Positions 41,863 through 47,988 of a stretch of DNA of 64,000 nucleotides are shown here, piece by piece; position 1 is the stretch's first letter; each line of letters begins with the position of its first letter. Source of the DNA: an uncultured Alphaproteobacteria bacterium (GTDB taxonomy: Bacteria > Pseudomonadota > Alphaproteobacteria > Rs-D84); assembly GCA_944389595.1 (NCBI GenBank), contig CALXMY010000001.1, positions 179 to 64,178 on the forward strand, given 5' to 3'. Both the position numbers and the translations under genes were made by a program. The notes beneath the pieces are model-generated. The model had not been told where the DNA came from, did no database searches, and was given only the letters and a program-made list of their open reading frames with translations.

Positions 41863-41890
41863 AAAATGCGCCAACGGCGCATTTTTTTAT
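41863..41890. terminator. bidirectional terminator hairpin
   Basis: AAAAAATGCGCCAACGGCGCATTTTTTTA. Confidence 0.7.
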
Positions 41891-42504
41891 TTTTGATTTT
41901 CCTGTTTGGATTTTAATGTTTTTAATCTTTTTTCATAAAATTTCATCAAAGTCGTGTTTACATCATTTTTGAATTTTTGTGTGTTGTTTTGTATACGTTT
42001 ATGCCATGTGGTCGTATCCAAATATTTTCTATACGCGGCACTGTCCGCAGCCAAATTATCAATTTCGGCGTTTACGTTTCGTAAATAATCCGTTGCGTGG
42101 CTTAATGGCCGGCTGTTGCGCAGTGCGGTGGTATATGTGGCATCCTTTATGGAATCGCGCGTTGCGTAAAATTTTTCTGCTGCTTCCTCTAGCGCAATTG
42201 TTTTATCAGATGATGCCATTGGTGTTGCGTTTATTTTTTTGCGCGCATCAGATAATTGCTGCATCGCATTTTTGTATTCCGTGGTATGCGGCAAAATGCT
42301 GTCCGCGTATCTCAGCGCGTTATTAAATGCTGTTTGATATTCCAATGTGGCATATGGCAAAACAGTATTACGCATATGGTCCAATTTACCCTGGTCAAAA
42401 CTTTTTGCGTCATATGATGCGATATATGCCGCAATGAACATGGCAATAATCGCAAAAATGCAACATGTTATTTCTAATTTTTCCATTGGTGTTTTTTTCG
42501 CCAT
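41887..42504 (-). CDS. hypothetical N-anchored helical protein
   Basis: 205 aa; single N-terminal TM then helical/coiled-coil domain. Confidence 0.45.
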   Translation of the reverse strand: MAKKTPMEKLEITCCIFAIIAMFIAAYIASYDAKSFDQGKLDHMRNTVLPYATLEYQTAFNNALRYADSILPHTTEYKNAMQQLSDARKKINATPMASSDKTIALEEAAEKFYATRDSIKDATYTTALRNSRPLSHATDYLRNVNAEIDNLAADSAAYRKYLDTTTWHKRIQNNTQKFKNDVNTTLMKFYEKRLKTLKSKQENQK

Positions 42505-42519
42505 GTTAAGTCCTTTTTT

Positions 42520-43092
42520 TTATCTGTCTTTTTCGTTTATTTTTTGTTGCACAATGGCAGCACGCTTGTCAAAATATTTGGACAAATTCAGGTTTGCGTT
42601 TAACCGTGCCTCGCGCCAACGTTGACCTAATGTGACAGAATCATTATATTTTAAGTATTGTTCAATTTGTTTTACCCTGTTTCTTGATGCATCTAATCGC
42701 AGTTTTGCTTTTTGCAAATCACGATTATTATGAATGTATTGATTCTGCAATTCGCTGTTTAATGAATCAATTTTGCGTTCCAGAGAATCGCTTTTATTAA
42801 TGTTGCCACGTTTAATTTCGTCATAAAATTGATTTAATAATCTCATGTATGTCGTATCTTGTTTTAATGTGTCATAGCTACGATTAATAACCGTATCATA
42901 CACCAGTTGATAATTCTCTTCCGAATGATACAGATTTTCGCGCGCTAAATCCAGGTCGTGTTGATTCGCTGGCATATCAGTTGCGTACGCGAATATTGCA
43001 ATCGCACCTATCACGGTTGTGCCGGCAAACATTGCCGCCCCTGCAACGTGTTTCCCGAACTTTTTAATATTTAATTTTTTTTGTTCAGACAT
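42520..43092 (-). CDS. hypothetical N-anchored helical protein (same architecture as neighbour)
   Basis: approx 190 aa from ATG 43092; single TM then coiled-coil domain. Confidence 0.45.
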   Translation of the reverse strand: MSEQKKLNIKKFGKHVAGAAMFAGTTVIGAIAIFAYATDMPANQHDLDLARENLYHSEENYQLVYDTVINRSYDTLKQDTTYMRLLNQFYDEIKRGNINKSDSLERKIDSLNSELQNQYIHNNRDLQKAKLRLDASRNRVKQIEQYLKYNDSVTLGQRWREARLNANLNLSKYFDKRAAIVQQKINEKDR

Positions 43093-43196
43093 AATAATTC
43101 CTTTTGCTTTTTCCCATAACAATATAGTACAAAATATAATATTGTCAATATATAAAATGAAAAAAATATTTTTCTCGTGTTATGGGAAAAATATTT

Positions 43197-43271
43197 TGGC
43201 AGTCCCAACGGGAATCGAACCCGTGTTACCGGAATGAGAATCCGATGTCCTAACCGCTAGACGATGGGACC
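43197..43271 (-). tRNA. tRNA-Glu (anticodon CTC as read)
   Basis: own fold: acceptor GGTCCCA/TGGGACT, D-arm TCGTCTAGCGGTTAGGACA, anticodon stem TCGGA/TCCGG with loop TTCTCAT, T-arm GGGTTCGATTCCC, discriminator G, CCA encoded. Confidence 0.75.
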
Positions 43272-43617
43272 AACGCCGTATATATTACAAATTATTTCCC
43301 ATTTTGCAAATGGTAAATGTATTGGGGCTGTGTGTGGGGCGATAATTTCGCGTATCAACATATTTAATGAAAAATATTGGGGTGGAAATTCTGGTGGCGG
43401 AATATTTGATAATAAGGGTGATATAATGGGAATTCATGTATGGGGCAAGCCTATAATTGGTGGTGAAAATCACGCAGGCAGCGCGGGTGGAATAAATCTG
43501 CAGATATCTGCATGGGATGGAATGAAAAGAAATGTAAAAGGTAATCTGCAAAATATAGTTGATGCTATAAAAGTTAATGATATAACAGTTAACGGTAAAG
43601 AAGTTGAAAGTATGTAA
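43264..43617 (+). pseudogene. C-terminal remnant of trypsin-like (S1) serine peptidase
   Basis: GNSGGGIFDNKGDIMGIHVWG matches the catalytic-Ser segment (GDSGGP-like) of the S1 fold; no room for His/Asp-bearing N-terminal half because ORF begins inside tRNA-Glu. Confidence 0.4.
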
Positions 43618-43656
43618 AAAGTGTTTTTTTATTTTTTTACCAAGGGGGGTTAAATT

Positions 43657-44028
43657 ATGAAAAAAGAAACAAAGGTCACGAAGTTAAAAATTGCTGGTAT
43701 AACTGCTTTGGTTGCGGGTGTGCTGGCGGCCGGTGGAATCGCATACAATAATTTTGCAAATTCCGAGAAAGATTCCGATAAAAAATTGGAAATCAACACG
43801 TCTAAATTAACTGTAAAGCAAATGCAGGATTTTATCCATGAATCAGATATTGCACTGGCACGTTTGCAAGGCGTTATTGATTCTGATACCGCCAATCCCG
43901 AAGAAAAATTCGAAGCACGTCGTGCATATAACAATATAAGTGTTGAGCGTGATAAAATGCGGAACGAATTACAAAAACGCCAACAAAAAACAATTGATTT
44001 TGATACAGTTCGTACGAACCATAGGTAA
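43657..44028 (+). CDS. hypothetical membrane-anchored protein
   Basis: 123 aa, N-terminal TM, GGGG SD. Confidence 0.4.
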   Translation: MKKETKVTKLKIAGITALVAGVLAAGGIAYNNFANSEKDSDKKLEINTSKLTVKQMQDFIHESDIALARLQGVIDSDTANPEEKFEARRAYNNISVERDKMRNELQKRQQKTIDFDTVRTNHR

Positions 44029-44134
44029 TGGTTGCGTTATCATAGTGCTAAATAGGCATCCCGCGGGTGTTGCGGGGCAAAAAAATCGCCCCATGTGGGC
44101 GATTTATAAACATTGCATTTATGTTAAGCGTATA

Positions 44135-44899
44135 TCAGCGTTTAATATTCTTTTCTTCTAATAAACGTAACATTTGTTTTACGGTCTCTTTGACATAAAA
44201 CGGTTCTATGATATTTGCCTCTATGCCATAATAATCTGGTTTGAATGTCAAACCGGCGGCGGCGACAAATTTTTCCAATGCCTTTGGATCCAATGCCAAT
44301 GTTATGCCCTCTTTGCGGTCATAGATAGTGTATATCATATCACGCATATTTTTTTGCAGACTGTTTAATTTTTTTGCAATAACGCTTTCGTCTTCTTGGA
44401 TATATTTTTGTAAAGCGTTCGGGGTCAGCCCACTATGTTTTGTCAGGGGGCCCCCAATATTATCTTTTAGATTCAAATTGGAATTCCCAAGCAACCAATC
44501 GATAGAATCCGCAAAAACATAATATGATGGCGACCGAAATGTAATGGCTTTTTTTGCCCCCGGTAAACGGCTTTTGTACAGTTTTGCCAATGTATAGGCG
44601 ATGTATTCGGGGGTACTGTTTATATAGTATTTTGCCAGTACATTAACATCAAATATATAGCGTTCAGGATTCAACGGTTTTTCGTGTTTTCGTAATTTTG
44701 CTATTTTACAAAATTCATCCAGAAAACTTTTATGTAAACACAAATGTAATTCGCCGTCAACAAGCCATGTGCGAATAACGTTGGGCATATATGTTTGATA
44801 ACGTTTCAGCAAATCATCGAAACTTTGCTTTGTATAAACAATATACAATCCTAACTCGTCAGGTGACAGCCAATTTTCTGGTTTGCGTTTTATATACAT
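44135..44899 (-). CDS. hypothetical protein
   Basis: approx 254 aa from ATG 44899 (track ORF extends to 45067); no family recognised. Confidence 0.45.
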   Translation of the reverse strand: MYIKRKPENWLSPDELGLYIVYTKQSFDDLLKRYQTYMPNVIRTWLVDGELHLCLHKSFLDEFCKIAKLRKHEKPLNPERYIFDVNVLAKYYINSTPEYIAYTLAKLYKSRLPGAKKAITFRSPSYYVFADSIDWLLGNSNLNLKDNIGGPLTKHSGLTPNALQKYIQEDESVIAKKLNSLQKNMRDMIYTIYDRKEGITLALDPKALEKFVAAAGLTFKPDYYGIEANIIEPFYVKETVKQMLRLLEEKNIKR

Positions 44900-45184
44900 A
44901 ACAAATCCTTTTTTATTATATTTTGGGGCCATAATATCACAAAAACAAGATTTGTCAATATGTTTTTTGGGATGTTTACAAATCTTTAACAAATATTTCC
45001 CATTTTGTAAATGGTAGAGTGTTTTATTGCGCGTTCCGGTCAATACCAGGAAACATGCAAACAACATAATATAAAATTTATTGATACATCAGATGGTATT
45101 CTGACCGCTTTGGGTGATTATATGAATATAACATCGTGCATTTTTTTGTATGAATCTTTCAGAAAAGTTGGTATAATAAACCAC

Positions 45185-46927
45185 ATGAATTTCCCAACCA
45201 GCCTGAACGGTTTTTTTAAGTTAATTTTCAAGACTTTCCCCGTTTGGTTAATTTCTTTATTTGTTATTTCGATATTATATCGTTCGGCAACGAATATATC
45301 TTGGCCTTTTGTTAACAAGTGGATTGTAGAGATGTTTGAATCTGCGACCACTGGTGTTTTTTCCTGGGTGTTTTGGGCAATTGTGGGGATGTTTGCTGCA
45401 ACGCTTATATTTGGGATATTGGAAAAACTTTTAACAGGATGGTTTTTGCCGTATTTGTCGAAATATATAAACCAAACGTTATACGAGTATATTTATCAAA
45501 ACGACACAGATTTTTTTATTAACCAACCCGCAGGTCAAACGTCCAGTTACGTTGCAAAAATATGCGGTAATTTTATATCATTGACCATCAGTACCGCCAT
45601 TCAGATAACTGGCTTTGTTTTATCGTTGGTGTTTGTTTTGGGTACGATTTTAACGATGGATGTGTATCTGGCGTTAATAATATTTGTCATTGTTGCCGTT
45701 CGCGGTGCATGGCAATTATGGATGCAACGCAAAATAAACAAACAGAAAAAAATCCAGGTGGAAAAGCAGTCCCGGGTTTCTGGTTACAGAATAGACAGTC
45801 TTACCAATGCATTGAATATAAAAATGTTCGGCAATACAGCGGATGAAAATAAATTTATTTGGAAAAAACAAATGGATTTATTAAAAACAGACCGACATAT
45901 TTTTAAGTTGGATTTATTGCGTTCTATACCATCTAATATTATCTGGTTGGTGATGCAGATATTTATAATATTATTTGCTGTATTTATGATTTTTGATGGA
46001 CAAATTACAATTTCTGATGGCGTATTTGTCGTTACGGGGGCGCGATCTTTTGGGTCGCAATTGTCAAGTGTTTTTCTGTTAATACAATCGTATTCAGAAA
46101 CCAAGACCGAGGCCACCAAGGCATATAACAGCGTTATCGTTCCACAAACAATTGCTGATAAACCAAATGCGAAACGTTTGGTAAAACAAAAATCTGAAAT
46201 AGTTTTTGATAATGTATCATTTACATACAAAAATGGTAAAAAGGTTTTGAAAAATTTTAATTTAACTGTCGCGCCAAATGAAAAATTGGGAATAGTTGGA
46301 TTATCGGGTTCGGGTAAAACAACGCTGATAAATTTGTTATTACGGATGTATGATGTTGATACCGGTGCAATAAAAATAAATGGCAGGGATATTCGGGATT
46401 TGATTCAAAATTCACTGCATAAAAATATCAGCATTGTTCCCCAAGATGTGACATTGTTCAATCGAACGATATTGGAAAATATACGCTATGGCGCGCCAAA
46501 TGCGTCCAAGTCCGATGTGATTCGGGCCGCTAAACACGCATATATTCATGATTTTATTATGGGGCTGCCAAATGGTTATGATACATTGGTTGGGAATCGT
46601 GGTGTAAAATTATCTGGTGGCCAGCGTCAAAGGGTCGCGATTGCGCGTGCAATATTAAAAGATGCGCCAATCTTGGTGTTTGACGAGGCCACATCTGCAT
46701 TGGATTCAGAAAGTGAAAAATATATTCAAAACGCATTAAATCGTATTATGCACGGCAAAACCGCCATAGTTATCGCACATAGGTTGTCGACATTGCGTAA
46801 TATGACCAGGATTGTTGTAATTCAGAACGGAAAAATTGTCGAGACCGGAACCCACAAACAATTATTGCGTGCAAATGGTGCATACAGAAAATTGTGGAAT
46901 ATGCAAACAGATGGATTCGTGGGATAA
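45185..46927 (+). CDS. ABC exporter, fused permease/ATPase (MsbA-like)
   Basis: 6-TM N-terminal domain; Walker A GLSGSGKTT, signature LSGGQRQR, Walker B ILVFDEATSALD, H-loop; start chosen downstream of overlapping minus-strand gene. Confidence 0.8.
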   Translation: MNFPTSLNGFFKLIFKTFPVWLISLFVISILYRSATNISWPFVNKWIVEMFESATTGVFSWVFWAIVGMFAATLIFGILEKLLTGWFLPYLSKYINQTLYEYIYQNDTDFFINQPAGQTSSYVAKICGNFISLTISTAIQITGFVLSLVFVLGTILTMDVYLALIIFVIVAVRGAWQLWMQRKINKQKKIQVEKQSRVSGYRIDSLTNALNIKMFGNTADENKFIWKKQMDLLKTDRHIFKLDLLRSIPSNIIWLVMQIFIILFAVFMIFDGQITISDGVFVVTGARSFGSQLSSVFLLIQSYSETKTEATKAYNSVIVPQTIADKPNAKRLVKQKSEIVFDNVSFTYKNGKKVLKNFNLTVAPNEKLGIVGLSGSGKTTLINLLLRMYDVDTGAIKINGRDIRDLIQNSLHKNISIVPQDVTLFNRTILENIRYGAPNASKSDVIRAAKHAYIHDFIMGLPNGYDTLVGNRGVKLSGGQRQRVAIARAILKDAPILVFDEATSALDSESEKYIQNALNRIMHGKTAIVIAHRLSTLRNMTRIVVIQNGKIVETGTHKQLLRANGAYRKLWNMQTDGFVG

Positions 46928-47018
46928 TATAATGATTTCAAATCAGGTCTTAATGCGAACAGACACCACGCATCACCAGATTTAATGAAAAATATTGGTG
47001 TGGAAATTCAGGGGTGAC

Positions 47019-47639
47019 TTAATCATTTTGTTTATTGAATGATCGTTGTAATATATTCCTTGATGGCTGTTGTTTTATTAAATCTGCAATATCAACACGA
47101 TGGTATTTTCCATCTGATATCGCTTGCCGCATTTCTGACTGTAAATTATCGTTTGTGGATGTGCCGGGTTTGTTTTTCAACGGTTCGTTTAACTCATATA
47201 TTTTATACCCCATTTTTCTTAATTCCGCGAATGTATTATATGTTTCGCGCCCGGATATTTTAATGGGCTTGGTTGAATAATATTCTGTGCCCCGGTCATG
47301 AATAAATGGCGCGTTTGTTGGTTCATACACAGTATAAAGATAAAATTCTGGTTTGATATTTTTTGCCAGACGCTCGAAAAATATTTTTCTGTCCCCCGTT
47401 TTTTGTGTATAATCGTACTTCACTTGGCCCCGGCCGGATAAACATTTTACCAACGCAAAAAATTTGGCATATTCCGCATGATCTGTAACAAATGCGCCAG
47501 TTACACGTTTGTTTTGTACGCTGTTAAATTGTTCCCTTGGTTGCAAAAAATCACCATGAATTTGCGTGGCGGAACCGTGATAATATTTGCGCTTTGTGGT
47601 TAATTTTTTTATCCCACTCGAAAAAACGTTTTTGTTCAT
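47019..47639 (-). CDS. hypothetical protein, possible PARP-like (H-Y-E class) ADP-ribosyltransferase fold
   Basis: 206 aa; YYHGS ... VTGAFVTDHAEYAKFFA ... EFYLYTVYE resemble the HGS / aromatic / Y-x-V-Y-acid segments of the PARP-type ADP-ribosyltransferase core (weak, by eye). Confidence 0.35.
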   Translation of the reverse strand: MNKNVFSSGIKKLTTKRKYYHGSATQIHGDFLQPREQFNSVQNKRVTGAFVTDHAEYAKFFALVKCLSGRGQVKYDYTQKTGDRKIFFERLAKNIKPEFYLYTVYEPTNAPFIHDRGTEYYSTKPIKISGRETYNTFAELRKMGYKIYELNEPLKNKPGTSTNDNLQSEMRQAISDGKYHRVDIADLIKQQPSRNILQRSFNKQND

Positions 47640-47742
47640 AAAAATACTCCGGCATTTATGCTTAAATTATACAATAAAAATCGCAAAAATACACCAAAAT
47701 AGAAAATTTTCATAAAACCGGCTTTTGAATATACGATGCCAG

Positions 47743-47757
47743 GGGCGCACGGATTCC
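47743..47757. repeat. 15-bp direct repeat of tRNA-Gln 3' end
   Basis: GGGGCGCACGGATTC identical to 47920-47934 inside tRNA-Gln, 177 bp away, same orientation. Confidence 0.7.
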
Positions 47758-47889
47758 CTCGCACGGCGCGGGGCGACCGCGGGGAAACCGTAACGATTTG
47801 ACTGCGCGTGTGCTTGTCAAATCTACTTGTTTTCGAACCGGCAACCGTCGGTTGCGGGCCACGAACCGTGGCCACGAACCAAAAATAAA

Positions 47890-47915
47890 AACGCCACAGG
47901 GGCGTTTTAATTTTT
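47890..47915 (-). terminator. terminator hairpin after tRNA-Gln (AAAACGCCCC-tgtg-GCGTTTTT on minus strand)
   Basis: same AACGCCCC/GGGGCGTT stem family as ppdK, rplU and rpmA terminators. Confidence 0.6.
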
Positions 47916-47988
47916 GGTTGGGGCGCACGGATTCGAACCATGATAAAGAGAACCAAAATCTCTTGTCCTACCATTAGACGACACCCCA
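47915..47988 (-). tRNA. tRNA-Gln (anticodon TTG)
   Basis: own fold: TGGGGTGTCGTCTAATGGTAGGACAAGAGATTTTGGTTCTCTTTATCATGGTTCGAATCCGTGCGCCCCAACCA; acceptor TGGGGTG/CGCCCCA, anticodon loop TTTTGGT, CCA encoded. Confidence 0.8.

What the first reader, a model, noticed from the sequence alone, without database searches (positions are those of the whole stretch)
47019..47639. Orphan 206-aa protein with possible PARP-like ADP-ribosyltransferase signature
The sequence contains, in order, YYHGS, then VTG-A-F-x-x-x-x-E-Y-A-x-FFA, then E-F-Y-L-Y-T-V-Y-E. These resemble the three core elements of H-Y-E class ADP-ribosyltransferases (PARP/DarT/diphtheria-toxin type): the HGS strand, the aromatic nicotinamide-stacking segment, and the E/Y-x-hydrophobic-Y-acid catalytic strand. 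It is an orphan on the tRNA-linked segment with no adjacent macrodomain antitoxin. The match is by eye only. If real, it would be a candidate toxin or host-targeting effector.
Basis: inference. Interest (0 to 1): 0.6.

Follow-up and report, generated by a model that had tools for sequence, protein, structure and literature searches.

The report
Unannotated Arr-like ADP-ribosyltransferase-fold protein family
The 206-aa ORF is a real gene from a small, unnamed protein family in genome-reduced gut Alphaproteobacteria; it is a distant relative of the rifampin-inactivating enzyme Arr, probably uses NAD+ to ADP-ribosylate an unknown target that is not rifampin, and shows no sign of being a toxin.

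Summary
The ORF (47019-47639, minus strand, 206 aa) and all three motifs exist as described. It belongs to a rare family: 122 clusters among 5.8 billion, all 'hypothetical', none with a Pfam domain, mostly from Ca. Enterousia and related gut Alphaproteobacteria. Four searches point to the ADP-ribosyltransferase (ART) fold, and each ranks Arr (rifampin ADP-ribosyltransferase) first: Pfam (13 of 32 members, sub-threshold), PDB sequence profile (E 0.03), Foldseek on a good AF2 model (2hw2, probability 0.98) and hhalign (80-94%; shuffled controls far lower). The conserved triad is H21-F50-D115, not H-Y-E. The proposed catalytic Glu (E106) lies in a subfamily-specific insert and is absent from 102 of 170 domain instances. 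The family fails Arr membership: below the Pfam cut-off, Tyr replaced by Phe, rifampin-binding loop deleted, an extra beta-hairpin and a 55-aa C-terminal extension. PARP, DarT, Tpt1 and toxin families are not hit. There is no macrodomain, antitoxin, signal peptide or delivery domain. A second subfamily ('B') is often adjacent or fused to this type elsewhere, but is absent from this window. Most likely it is a cytoplasmic NAD+-dependent mono-ART with an unknown acceptor. It is a new family-level variant of a known superfamily and of moderate interest.

The parts
47019..47639 (-). CDS of 206 aa: A-type member of an unannotated Arr-like ART-fold family
   Evidence: ORF. 55 close homologs and 122 clusters with the profile. 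AF2 model has pLDDT 81.4 and pTM 0.75. The top Foldseek PDB hit is Arr 2hw2.
47571..47585 (-). YYHGS (residues 19-23) at the end of beta1; H21 is the predicted NAD+-contacting His, equivalent to Arr H19 in its HGT motif
   Evidence: H is kept in 161 of 163 instances. It aligns to Arr H19. The strand spans 18-23 in the model.
47520..47540 (-). P34...F38-N39-S40 loop (residues 34-40): N39 aligns with the N of the Arr SN[Y/F] NAD-entrance motif; conserved only in the A-type subfamily
   Evidence: hhalign alignment. N is present in 73 of 170 instances. Motif definition from PMC6092378. This part of the model has low confidence, residues 38-45.
47484..47498 (-). GAFVT strand (residues 48-52); F50 takes the place of Arr Tyr49 (nicotinamide-side aromatic)
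   Evidence: F is kept in 162 of 164 instances, with 1 Y and 1 W. It aligns to Arr Y49.
47364..47426 (-). Extra beta-hairpin (about residues 72-92) that is absent from Arr
   Evidence: Strands 73-78 and 83-88 in the model. Deleting residues 72-92 raises hhalign to 93.5%, E 2e-7. hhalign opens a gap here by itself with the distant subset.
47322..47345 (-). FYLYTVYE strand (residues 99-106), equivalent to Arr beta4 'RIYIVEP'; Y102 is conserved, but Y105-E106-P107 is a subfamily-specific insert and not the catalytic acid
47295..47309 (-). PFIHD (residues 111-115); D115 is the predicted catalytic acid, equivalent to the Arr E82-D83-D84 segment
   Evidence: D is kept in 151 of 160 instances and F112 in 154 of 160. 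D115 aligns to Arr D83, next to catalytic D84, so the register is uncertain by one residue.
47022..47189 (-). C-terminal extension (residues 151-206: helix 163-175, strand 179-182, helices 184-190 and 194-202) with no counterpart in Arr; candidate acceptor-binding or partner-binding module
   Evidence: Secondary structure of the model. Conserved E169, M170, I174, H180, R181 and D183 in the A subfamily. Arr ends after the strand equivalent to residues 145-150.
47647..47671 (-). Own expression signals: GGAG 7 nt before the ATG and a perfect TATAAT 26 nt before the ATG
   Evidence: Read directly from the sequence. The consensus scan found no -35/-10 pair here, so the promoter is inferred.
47888..47988 (-). 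tRNA-Gln(ttg) with a terminator-like hairpin (47888-47908) that separates it from the ART gene

Best explanation
The ORF is an intact, expressed-looking gene for a cytoplasmic protein of about 24 kDa with the ADP-ribosyltransferase fold. It belongs to a small, previously unannotated family whose closest characterised relative is Arr, the NAD+:rifampin ADP-ribosyltransferase. Proposed mechanism, inferred by analogy with Arr: NAD+ binds in the cleft between the two half-sheets. His21 (YHGS, end of beta1) contacts the NAD+ ribose. Phe50 (GAFVT strand) stacks on the nicotinamide side in place of Arr Tyr49. Asp115 (PFIHD) stabilises the oxocarbenium intermediate after nicotinamide leaves. ADP-ribose is then transferred to a nucleophile on an acceptor. 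That acceptor is held by elements absent from Arr: the extra hairpin (residues 72-92) and the 55-residue C-terminal extension. The acceptor is not rifampin, because the Arr rifampin-binding loop is deleted. Because the gene stands alone in this window and in many other loci, with no antidote gene, the enzyme is probably not self-toxic. It most plausibly modifies a small molecule or metabolite, or a specific endogenous target. In many relatives it works with, or is fused to, a paralogous 'B-type' domain. What is shown: the gene, the family, the conservation, the fold and the homology to Arr. What is inferred: NAD+ use, the catalytic roles of H21, F50 and D115, and the class of acceptor.
For: Gene and family: ORF; 55 homologs at 42-91% identity; 39 representative clusters among 1.84 billion; 122 clusters among 5.8 billion, none annotated. 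Fold: AF2 pLDDT 81.4 with the core above 90. The top Foldseek PDB hit is Arr 2hw2 (probability 0.98, E 8e-3); the only other recognisable folds in the list are PARP16, tankyrases and cholera toxin A1. BFVD hits include a phage 'Ms Rifampin ADP-ribosyl transferase' (probability 1.0, TMt 0.69) and a viral NAD+ ART. Sequence profiles: Pfam Arr-ms is the only hit for the window protein (E 0.088) and the most frequent hit among members (13 of 32, best 6.5e-4), followed by DUF3990 and ART-PolyVal, which are in the same Pfam clan (clan membership from PMC7955679). With the family profile, the top two of 177,635 PDB sequences are Arr (E 0.026 and 0.031). hhalign against an alignment of 18 PF12120 proteins gives 80.4%, 93.5% after removing the extra hairpin, and 93.9% (E 1.6e-7, 83 columns) with the distant subset alone. 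150 column shuffles scored 11.2 +/- 2.1 (maximum 18.6) against observed scores of 30.9 and 38.3. The secondary-structure order of the model (beta1-beta2-beta3-alpha1-[hairpin]-beta4-beta5-beta6-beta7-alpha2-beta8) is collinear with Arr (Arr elements from PMC6092378). Catalytic positions: conservation of H21, F50 and D115; their alignment to Arr H19, Y49 and D83/84; Arr mutagenesis data cited in PMC6092378. Not toxin-like: no conserved antidote gene, no macro, ARH or Nudix neighbour. The same gyrA...MarR-RND slot, bracketed by tRNA-Gln and tRNA-Glu, holds the gene in a relative with 61-63% identity. The gene is intact while neighbouring genes have decayed to fragments.
Against: Every individual link to Arr is sub-threshold or moderate: Pfam scores are below the gathering cut-off, Foldseek TM-scores are only 0.30/0.43, and hhalign stays below 95%. 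The close A subfamily alone reaches only 17% against Arr, and the B subfamily alone does not reach it at all. The Tyr that is catalytically important in Arr is replaced by Phe, which cannot hydrogen-bond, so activity could be altered or lost. D115 aligns to Arr D83 rather than D84 in both extended alignments. I could not inspect coordinates, so the spatial clustering of H21, F50 and D115 is untested. No evidence identifies the acceptor. The small-molecule idea rests only on the Arr analogy, the lack of an antidote gene and loosely 'resistome-like' neighbours (GNAT acetyltransferases, P-loop kinases, MarR-RND efflux) that are neither universal nor statistically tested.
Confidence: 0.6

Rival explanations
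1. One reading: a PARP/DarT/diphtheria-toxin-type H-Y-E ADP-ribosylating toxin or host-targeting effector that modifies a macromolecule (DNA, RNA or protein) of a competitor, a phage or the animal host.
For: The ART fold is supported. The family is lineage-restricted, often multi-copy and variable at one chromosomal slot: A-type in the window and L007, and an N-domain plus B-type fusion in L031. That pattern is reminiscent of conflict genes. The gene lies in a low-GC, rearranged inter-tRNA segment with an att-like tRNA 3' repeat. B-type members weakly hit ART-PolyVal, a family of injected phage and plasmid effectors.
Against: No antitoxin or immunity candidate is conserved next to it, and there is no macrodomain, ARH or DarG-like gene. 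No signal peptide is evident in MNKNVFSSGIKKLTTKRK, and there is no Rhs, PAAR, MuF or other delivery domain. PADLOC gives nothing. There are no Pfam hits to PARP, DarT, Diphtheria_C, exotoxin or enterotoxin families. The proposed catalytic Glu is not conserved. A solo copy is stably kept in genomes of about 0.9 Mb.
Confidence: 0.13
2. A nucleic-acid- or nucleotide-directed ART with Tpt1/KptA-like chemistry. It would transfer ADP-ribose to a phosphate on an RNA or tRNA end or on a nucleotide, with the product further processed by a phosphohydrolase.
For: Distant members are fused to an HD-superfamily phosphohydrolase domain in both orders (P0064, P0072). One distant member is embedded in a gatC-gatA-[X]-[238 aa]-gatB operon, which encodes tRNA-dependent amidotransferase. 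tRNA-Gln genes lie within 2-3 kb in four distinct contexts: the window, L007, L001 and L023. PMC9503650 assigns RNA repair, small-molecule modification and generation of soluble ADPr derivatives to one ART clade, H-H-h.
Against: No member hits Pfam PTS_2-RNA. The Tpt1 R-H-R-R tetrad is absent: the residue before the His is Tyr in 162 of 163 instances, and there is no N-terminal winged-helix domain. The tRNA proximity is better explained by integration or rearrangement hot spots, given the 15-nt tRNA 3' repeat and the gene remnants. The gat operon context is a single lineage. The HD domains are only weakly matched: Pfam E 5e-4 to 1e-3 and one structural-genomics HD hydrolase.
Confidence: 0.14
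3. A catalytically dead or re-purposed ART fold: an NAD+/ADP-ribose-binding regulator, an NADase, or a scaffold subunit that only works as a partner of the B-type paralog.
For: Tyr is replaced by Phe at the position equivalent to Arr Y49. A and B types are adjacent in at least six distinct loci and fused in both orders, B-A and A-B. That pattern is typical of obligate heteromers in which one subunit can be non-catalytic.
Against: Both A and B types keep the full H...F...D set. Strict conservation of His, Gly, Ser/Thr, Phe and Asp is what catalysis would predict. Many genomes, including this window, carry A without an adjacent B. An unregulated NADase would need an immunity gene, and none is seen.
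Confidence: 0.1
4. A bona fide Arr orthologue that confers rifamycin resistance.
For: Arr is the top hit in every search. A MarR-RND efflux operon is adjacent.
Against: The score is below the Pfam cut-off (13.5 against 25 bits). The beta5-beta6 rifampin-binding loop ([LV]TK[KR]P with K91, L92 and P96) is a gap of 10-12 residues in the family (residues from PMC6092378). There is no DPN[VL] motif and no M[RK][DE]xL on the aligned helix. The protein carries an extra hairpin and a C-terminal extension.
Confidence: 0.03

Closest known systems
Arr (NAD+:rifampin ADP-ribosyltransferase; Pfam PF12120 Arr-ms; PDB 2hw2, 9iaf)
   Same: Small single-domain ART fold with the same order of secondary-structure elements. 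HG[ST] at the end of beta1 (H21 = H19). An aromatic residue on the next core strand (F50 = Y49). A conserved Asp after the 'hydrophobic-Y-hydrophobic-V' strand (D115 = D83/D84). A shared 'x-Y-x-[ST]-x-x-P-[IV]-x-I' strand and an 'ELRK.G...IY' C-terminal helix-strand. Stand-alone cytoplasmic gene without an antidote gene. Arr is the top hit in Pfam, PDB-profile, Foldseek and hhalign searches.
   Different: Identity is about 16-22% and only over the core. Scores are below the Pfam threshold. Phe replaces the catalytic-site Tyr. The rifampin-binding loop is deleted, the DPN[VL] motif is missing and alpha2 is shortened. There is an inserted hairpin of about 20 residues and a C-terminal extension of about 55 residues. 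The family shows an A/B paralog pairing and fusions that, to my knowledge, have not been described for Arr (not checked in the literature). It is restricted to Rs-D84-type gut Alphaproteobacteria plus a few other lineages.
ART-PolyVal (PF18760) and DUF3990 (PF13151), uncharacterised ART-clan families
   Same: Weak N-terminal profile matches covering the HGS strand and the following strand and helix: 3 of 32 members each, and B-type at E 1.3e-3. Like them, this is an uncharacterised small ART domain.
   Different: All scores are far below the gathering cut-offs. This family is not embedded in polyvalent phage or plasmid proteins, and I found no T6SS or Rhs context here.
Tpt1/KptA RNA 2'-phosphotransferase (PTS_2-RNA; H-H-h clade)
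   Same: A non-toxic, housekeeping-type ART that acts on a non-protein acceptor. It shares an 'HG[ST]'-type first motif. Fusion or association of some relatives with phosphoesterases (HD here; 2H, macro or Nudix for Tpt1) is conceptually similar.
   Different: No profile or fold match. The R-H-R-R tetrad and the N-terminal winged-helix domain are absent. The second position is Phe, not His, and the third is Asp, not a hydrophobic residue.
PARP, diphtheria-toxin and DarT H-Y-E enzymes
   Same: The same superfamily fold and the same logic of a first-strand His plus an aromatic residue.
   Different: Only marginal Foldseek matches (E of 1 or more, probability 0.21 or less). No Pfam matches. No conserved catalytic Glu. 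No DarG or macrodomain partner. No regulatory, translocation or receptor domains.

Membership tests
ADP-ribosyltransferase superfamily (Pfam clan ADP-ribosyl, CL0084) | Split beta-sheet NAD+-binding fold recognisable by structure comparison | tested here: met
ADP-ribosyltransferase superfamily (Pfam clan ADP-ribosyl, CL0084) | Three conserved active-site positions on core strands (H/R; Y/H/S; E/D/Q/hydrophobic) | tested here: met
   H21 is kept in 161 of 163 instances, F50 in 162 of 164 and D115 in 151 of 160. They align to Arr H19, Y49 and D83/84. Their spatial proximity in the model could not be checked.
Arr / PF12120 (rifampin ADP-ribosyltransferase) | Score at or above the Pfam gathering threshold (25 bits) | tested here: not met
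   13.5 bits for the window protein. The best E-value in the family is 6.5e-4, and all hits are below 25 bits.
Arr / PF12120 (rifampin ADP-ribosyltransferase) | HGT motif with H19 at the end of beta1 | tested here: met
   YHG[ST] is nearly invariant and aligns to Arr H19-G20-T21.
Arr / PF12120 (rifampin ADP-ribosyltransferase) | Tyr49 on beta3 | tested here: not met
   The residue is Phe in 162 of 164 domain instances, and Tyr in one.
Arr / PF12120 (rifampin ADP-ribosyltransferase) | Catalytic Asp84 within DPN[V/L] | tested here: inconclusive
   A conserved Asp (D115) aligns to D83, one residue from D84. The following P-N-[VL] is absent; the sequence here is D-R-G-T.
Arr / PF12120 (rifampin ADP-ribosyltransferase) | SN[Y/F] motif in the beta2-beta3 loop | tested here: inconclusive
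   F38-N39-S40 aligns with S37-N38-F39, so only the Asn matches. N39 is conserved only in the A-type subfamily, 73 of 170 instances.
Arr / PF12120 (rifampin ADP-ribosyltransferase) | Rifampin-binding loop between beta5 and beta6 ([LV]TK[KR]P; V87, K91, L92, P96) and alpha2 motif M[RK][DE]xL | tested here: not met
   The family has a gap of 10-12 residues opposite Arr 'PNVTDKKLPGNPTR'. The helix aligned to alpha2 is about 8 residues long and lacks the motif. Residue list from PMC6092378.
PARP / diphtheria-toxin-type H-Y-E ARTs | Catalytic Glu on beta5 and Tyr on beta2/3; profile match to PARP, Diphtheria_C or Exotox-A | tested here: not met
   E106 lies in a subfamily-specific insert and is a gap in 102 of 170 instances. 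The aromatic is Phe, not Tyr. No Pfam hits to these families in 32 diverse members. Foldseek E is 1 or more.
DarT-DarG toxin-antitoxin | DarT (DUF4433) profile match and an adjacent macrodomain antitoxin | tested here: not met
   No DarT hit. No PADLOC hit. No macrodomain in the window neighbours or in about 24 distinct homolog contexts.
Tpt1/KptA (PTS_2-RNA) | R-H-R-R catalytic tetrad, N-terminal winged-helix RNA-binding domain, profile match | tested here: not met
   The residue preceding the His is Tyr in 162 of 163 instances. The protein starts 18 residues before the HGS strand. No PTS_2-RNA hit.
Any ART | NAD+-dependent ADP-ribosyl transfer or NAD+ hydrolysis | not testable with these tools
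   This needs biochemistry with the purified protein.

The most novel reading that the evidence does not exclude
The A-type protein encoded here and its B-type paralog may form a two-component, or tandem-domain, ADP-ribosylating enzyme with a non-canonical H-F-D active site. That would make it a distinct ART clade, found so far mainly in genome-reduced Rs-D84 gut Alphaproteobacteria. It would be kept in genomes of about 0.9 Mb because it modifies something central to their dependent lifestyle, such as a partner- or host-derived metabolite or antibiotic, or a tRNA- or nucleotide-linked substrate. The HD fusions and the gatCAB-embedded relative hint at the second possibility.
Probability: 0.2. 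Interest if true: 0.6.

Novelty: new variant of a known kind. Interest (0 to 1): 0.38.

Why it matters
ADP-ribosyltransferases act as antibiotic-resistance enzymes, toxins, RNA-repair enzymes and anti-defence factors, and which role a family plays depends on its details. This family has no entry in the Pfam or NCBIfam copies searched, and none of its 122 clusters carries a name. Even so, it is retained, often in two or three copies, in bacteria with only about 850-950 genes. It shows that the Arr scaffold has been rebuilt: the rifampin loop is removed, and a new hairpin, a new C-terminal module and a Tyr-to-Phe change are added. Identifying the acceptor would extend the known range of 'non-protein' ADP-ribosylation. 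It would also help in reading resistome screens, where such genes could be mistaken for arr. Practically, the result removes a 'candidate toxin' flag from this locus.

Tried and rejected
(1) NCBIfam and PADLOC scans of the protein found nothing. PHROGs gave only weak hits to families of unknown function.
(2) phmmer of the single sequence against PDB gave only spurious hits: spike RBD and TCR. The A1 profile, which was diluted by second-domain columns, also missed Arr. Only the broader single-domain profile A3 ranked Arr first.
(4) I tested whether the two similar-sized ORFs at 41887-42504 and 42520-43122 are paralogs. They are not.
(5) I searched the whole 64-kb window for a B-type copy or a second family member. 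There is none.
(6) I asked whether the GC-rich stretch upstream (47700-47885) is a riboswitch or other known RNA. There is no Rfam match, and folding is only modestly better than shuffles (z = -2.7).
(7) The weak Pfam CTD6 hits (E 0.003-0.1, residues 104-197) are confined to one tight subgroup of near-identical 201-aa proteins. I treated them as noise.
(8) The GNAT (Acetyltransf_3) neighbour occurs in 8 of about 24 contexts, directly adjacent in three. It is absent from the window and many other loci, and no background rate is available, so I did not rely on it.
(9) The B-subfamily-only profile against Arr gave no signal, so the B-to-Arr link is only transitive.
(10) I abandoned a two-domain (B-A) structure prediction because MAFFT aligned the B singles onto the A half.
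(11) The primary Arr structure paper (PMC2290778) is not held. Arr residue roles were taken from PMC6092378 and PMC8120803 instead.
(12) The search for related loci with the broad alignment A3 failed for lack of a conserved stretch, so the genome scan used A2 and therefore reports only the close A-type subfamily.
Full report
OBSERVATION. The window contains an ATG-initiated ORF of 206 codons at 47019..47639 on the minus strand. It is preceded by GGAG (47647-47650) 7 nt before the start codon and by a perfect TATAAT (47666-47671), both read. tRNA-Gln(ttg) lies 275 nt upstream on the same strand and is closed by a terminator-like hairpin. tRNA-Glu(ctc) lies 3.7 kb downstream of the gene's 3' end.

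IS IT A REAL GENE, AND HOW COMMON IS IT? A search of 5.8 billion protein clusters found 55 homologs at 42-91% identity. All were 'hypothetical' and none had a precomputed Pfam domain. An exhaustive HMMER search of 1.84 billion representatives with the family profile found only 39 clusters at E of 1e-3 or better. A broader profile found 122 clusters in the 5.8-billion set, again without a single annotation. In one genome per species (185,579 species), the close subfamily occurs at 22 loci. All are in MAGs of 'Candidatus Enterousia' or unclassified Alphaproteobacteria from ruminant, horse and other animal guts. Enterousia belongs to order Rs-D84, whose genomes are reduced to about 0.75-1.0 Mb (PMC12306168). 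Conservation is strong and position-specific, so this is a functional gene, not a chance ORF.

FOLD AND HOMOLOGY. For the window protein, Pfam reports only Arr-ms (PF12120, rifampin ADP-ribosyltransferase). The hit scores E 0.088 and 13.5 bits against a 25-bit cut-off, and starts exactly at YYHGS. Among 32 diverse family members, Arr-ms is the most frequent hit (13 members, best E 6.5e-4). DUF3990 and ART-PolyVal follow with 3 members each, and PMC7955679 lists both with the ART clan/superfamily. No member hits PARP, DarT, PTS_2-RNA (Tpt1) or the diphtheria, cholera or pertussis toxin families.

A family profile searched against all PDB sequences ranks two Arr entries first (9iaf E 0.026, 2hw2 E 0.031), and ARR-2 also appears. 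An AlphaFold2 model built on the family alignment is confident: mean pLDDT 81.4, pTM 0.75, core blocks at 90-96. Foldseek against the PDB again puts Arr 2hw2 first (E 8e-3, probability 0.98). The only other recognisable folds in the list are PARP16, tankyrases and cholera toxin A1, at E 1-2. Against predicted viral structures, the model matches small uncharacterised phage proteins at E down to 4e-6. It also matches a phage protein named 'Ms Rifampin ADP-ribosyl transferase' (probability 1.0, TM 0.69 on the target) and a giant-virus NAD+ ART.

I then built an alignment of 18 genuine PF12120 proteins and ran profile-profile comparison. The broad family profile gives 80.4% (E 1.3e-5) over the first 46 columns. 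Relative to Arr, the model has an extra beta-hairpin at about residues 72-92. Deleting it raises the result to 93.5% (E 2.2e-7) over 85 columns, whereas deleting the alternative segment gives no gain. A profile of only the distant relatives, with neither close A-type nor B-type sequences, reaches 93.9% (E 1.6e-7, 83 columns). In that run hhalign placed the gaps itself. 150 column-shuffled controls scored 11.2 +/- 2.1 (maximum 18.6) against observed scores of 30.9 and 38.3.

ACTIVE-SITE ANATOMY. Arr is an H-Y-D enzyme. It has H19 in an HGT motif at the end of beta1, Y49 on beta3 and the catalytic D84. It also has an SN[Y/F] loop motif, a DPN[V/L] motif, a beta5-beta6 rifampin-binding loop and a rifampin-contacting helix M[RK][DE]xL (PMC6092378; PMC8120803). 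In the alignments, H21 matches H19, N39 matches N38 and F50 matches Y49. 'FYLYTV' matches 'RIYIV', 'PFIHD' matches 'AIEDD', and 'EYYSTKPIKI' matches 'SYRTREPVWI'. D115 lands on D83, one residue from D84.

Across 170 domain instances of the whole family, counting non-gap positions, H21 is kept in 161 of 163, F50 in 162 of 164 (one Tyr, one Trp), D115 in 151 of 160, Y102 in 156 of 161 and Y120 in 151 of 159. It is a gap in 102 of the 170 instances. The family signature is therefore H-F-D. The segment 'EYAKFFA' is the helix that follows the aromatic strand, not the nicotinamide-stacking element.

Relative to Arr, the family deletes the rifampin-binding loop (a gap of 10-12 residues), lacks P-N-[VL] after the Asp and has a much shorter alpha2. 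It adds the hairpin and a 55-residue C-terminal extension with its own conserved residues E169, M170, I174, H180, R181 and D183. It therefore fails the Arr membership test and should not be expected to modify rifampin.

GENOMIC CONTEXT. In the window, the gene is convergent with an ABC exporter (45011-46927). It lies next to a MarR-OEP-MFP-RND efflux operon on the far side of tRNA-Gln. No neighbour is a macrodomain, ARH or Nudix protein. Across about 24 distinct homolog contexts, no single partner is conserved.

Two patterns do recur. First, there is a second subfamily, which I call B-type. Its members are about 180 aa with the signature 'KTLYHGS...ITDGFI...AAFAT...YVYEVSSDGF.PD...NGNIKVYVL', and they keep the same H, F and D. 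B-type lies immediately upstream of the A-type gene in at least six distinct loci. It is also fused to A in both orders, B-A (about 350 aa) and A-B (342-355 aa). This is a Rosetta-stone indication that A and B act together. The window has no B-type copy within its 64 kb.

Second, small modification enzymes recur nearby in the Enterousia loci, but not universally. They include Acetyltransf_3 and FR47-like GNATs, P-loop kinases, a histidine phosphatase and HExxH proteins.

A relative with 61-63% identity (L007) has the gene in the same chromosomal slot: gyrA-MerR ... MarR-RND, bracketed by the same tRNA-Gln(ttg) and tRNA-Glu(ctc), but with different co-residents. In another genome, that slot holds a 391-aa protein made of an unknown N-domain plus a B-type domain. 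Distant members are fused to HD-superfamily hydrolase domains. One distant member sits inside a gatC-gatA-[X]-[238 aa]-gatB operon.

The window segment between the two tRNAs is low in GC (0.33-0.39 against 0.41-0.49) and carries rearrangement scars. These are an exact 15-nt copy of the tRNA-Gln 3' end 178 nt downstream of the tRNA, a 44-nt direct repeat bracketing the ABC block, and C-terminal fragments of two genes that are intact neighbours of the ART gene elsewhere. The ART gene has stayed intact amid this decay.

INTERPRETATION. The best-supported reading is a cytoplasmic, NAD+-using mono-ADP-ribosyltransferase built on the Arr scaffold but with a remodelled acceptor site. By analogy, H21 and the loop Asn position NAD+, F50 stacks against the nicotinamide side, and D115 stabilises the oxocarbenium intermediate. 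The hairpin and the C-terminal module, possibly with a B-type partner, bind the acceptor. The absence of any antidote gene, the stand-alone copies in tiny genomes and the kinship to Arr favour a non-self-toxic role. That role could be modification of a small molecule or a specific endogenous target.

The rivals are as follows. A Tpt1-like nucleic-acid- or nucleotide-directed enzyme is hinted at by the HD fusions and the gat operon, but the Tpt1 catalytic tetrad and domain are absent. A pseudo-enzyme or obligate heteromer subunit is possible, given the Tyr-to-Phe change and the A/B pairing. A true rifampin Arr is effectively excluded by the missing binding loop.

The steps shown here are the gene, the family, the conservation, the fold and the Arr homology. 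The steps inferred are NAD+ use, the residue roles and the class of acceptor.

NOVELTY AND VERDICT. The ART superfamily and Arr are well known, and finding another divergent ART family would not astonish a specialist. However, this family is uncatalogued in the Pfam (2025) and NCBIfam (2026) copies searched. It also has a non-canonical H-F-D triad, a distinctive A/B paralog architecture and a narrow distribution in genome-reduced gut symbionts. I rate it a new variant of a known kind, with interest about 0.38. Its interpretation is partly supported: the ART fold holds, but the catalytic Glu is wrong, the nearest family is wrong, and there is no evidence for a toxin.

Noticed in passing
window 47742-47756 (-) and 47920-47934 (-): An exact 15-nt direct repeat (GAATCCGTGCGCCCC) of the 3' end of tRNA-Gln lies 178 nt downstream of the tRNA, just upstream of the ART gene. 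About 0.16 matches are expected by chance, even allowing 2 mismatches. The 163 nt in between are unusually GC-rich. It looks like an att-type scar of an integration or excision event at the tRNA, or a partial tRNA duplication.
   Followed up: partly
window 43351-43394 and 46969-47012: A 44-nt direct repeat (89% identity) brackets a 3.6-kb block carrying a 123-aa ORF, a 310-aa ORF and the ABC exporter. The second copy lies in the 91-nt gap between the convergent ABC and ART genes. The first copy overlaps a fragment of a trypsin-like gene. It is probably a rearrangement or insertion scar.
   Followed up: partly
window 45002-45133 and 43378-43482: Two gene remnants. The C-terminal 44 aa of a P-loop kinase (57% identity to the intact gene next to the ART gene in other Enterousia loci) is fused in frame to the annotated start of the ABC-transporter ORF, so the true ABC start is probably further downstream. 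The C-terminal 35 aa of a trypsin-like protein (69% identity to the intact gene in L007/L010) is also present.
   Followed up: partly
window 42400-47800: The segment between tRNA-Glu(ctc) and tRNA-Gln(ttg) has lower GC (0.33-0.39) than its flanks (0.41-0.49). Its gene content differs from the same slot in L007 and L031. It is a variable inter-tRNA hot spot between gyrA-MerR and the MarR-OEP-MFP-RND efflux operon.
   Followed up: partly
L033/L034 5001-6247 (Alphaproteobacteria MAG, contigs of 290-720 kb): A distant 170-aa family member and an unannotated 238-aa protein are inserted between gatA and gatB of a gatCAB (Glu-tRNA-Gln amidotransferase) operon.
   Followed up: no
proteins P0064 (401 aa) and P0072 (378 aa): Distant family members are fused to an HD-superfamily hydrolase domain, in either order (ART-HD and HD-ART). 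The HD part matches only an uncharacterised structural-genomics HD hydrolase (2pq7, E 0.002).
   Followed up: partly
L031 5001-6176; proteins P0234-P0248 (391 aa): A recurrent 391-aa architecture joins an unknown N-terminal domain of about 200 aa to a B-type ART-like domain. In L031 it occupies exactly the chromosomal slot that holds the A-type gene in the window.
   Followed up: no
window 44135-45067 (-): A 310-aa ORF with no Pfam match lies next to the ABC exporter. Its 5' end overlaps the (probably over-extended) ABC ORF by 57 nt.
   Followed up: no
window 42520-43122 (-): A 200-aa ORF with a sub-threshold Pfam match to TssO, a type VI secretion component (E 0.0011, 19.6 against 29.2 bits). 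A 200-aa protein occupies the equivalent position in L007. It is probably not meaningful.
   Followed up: no
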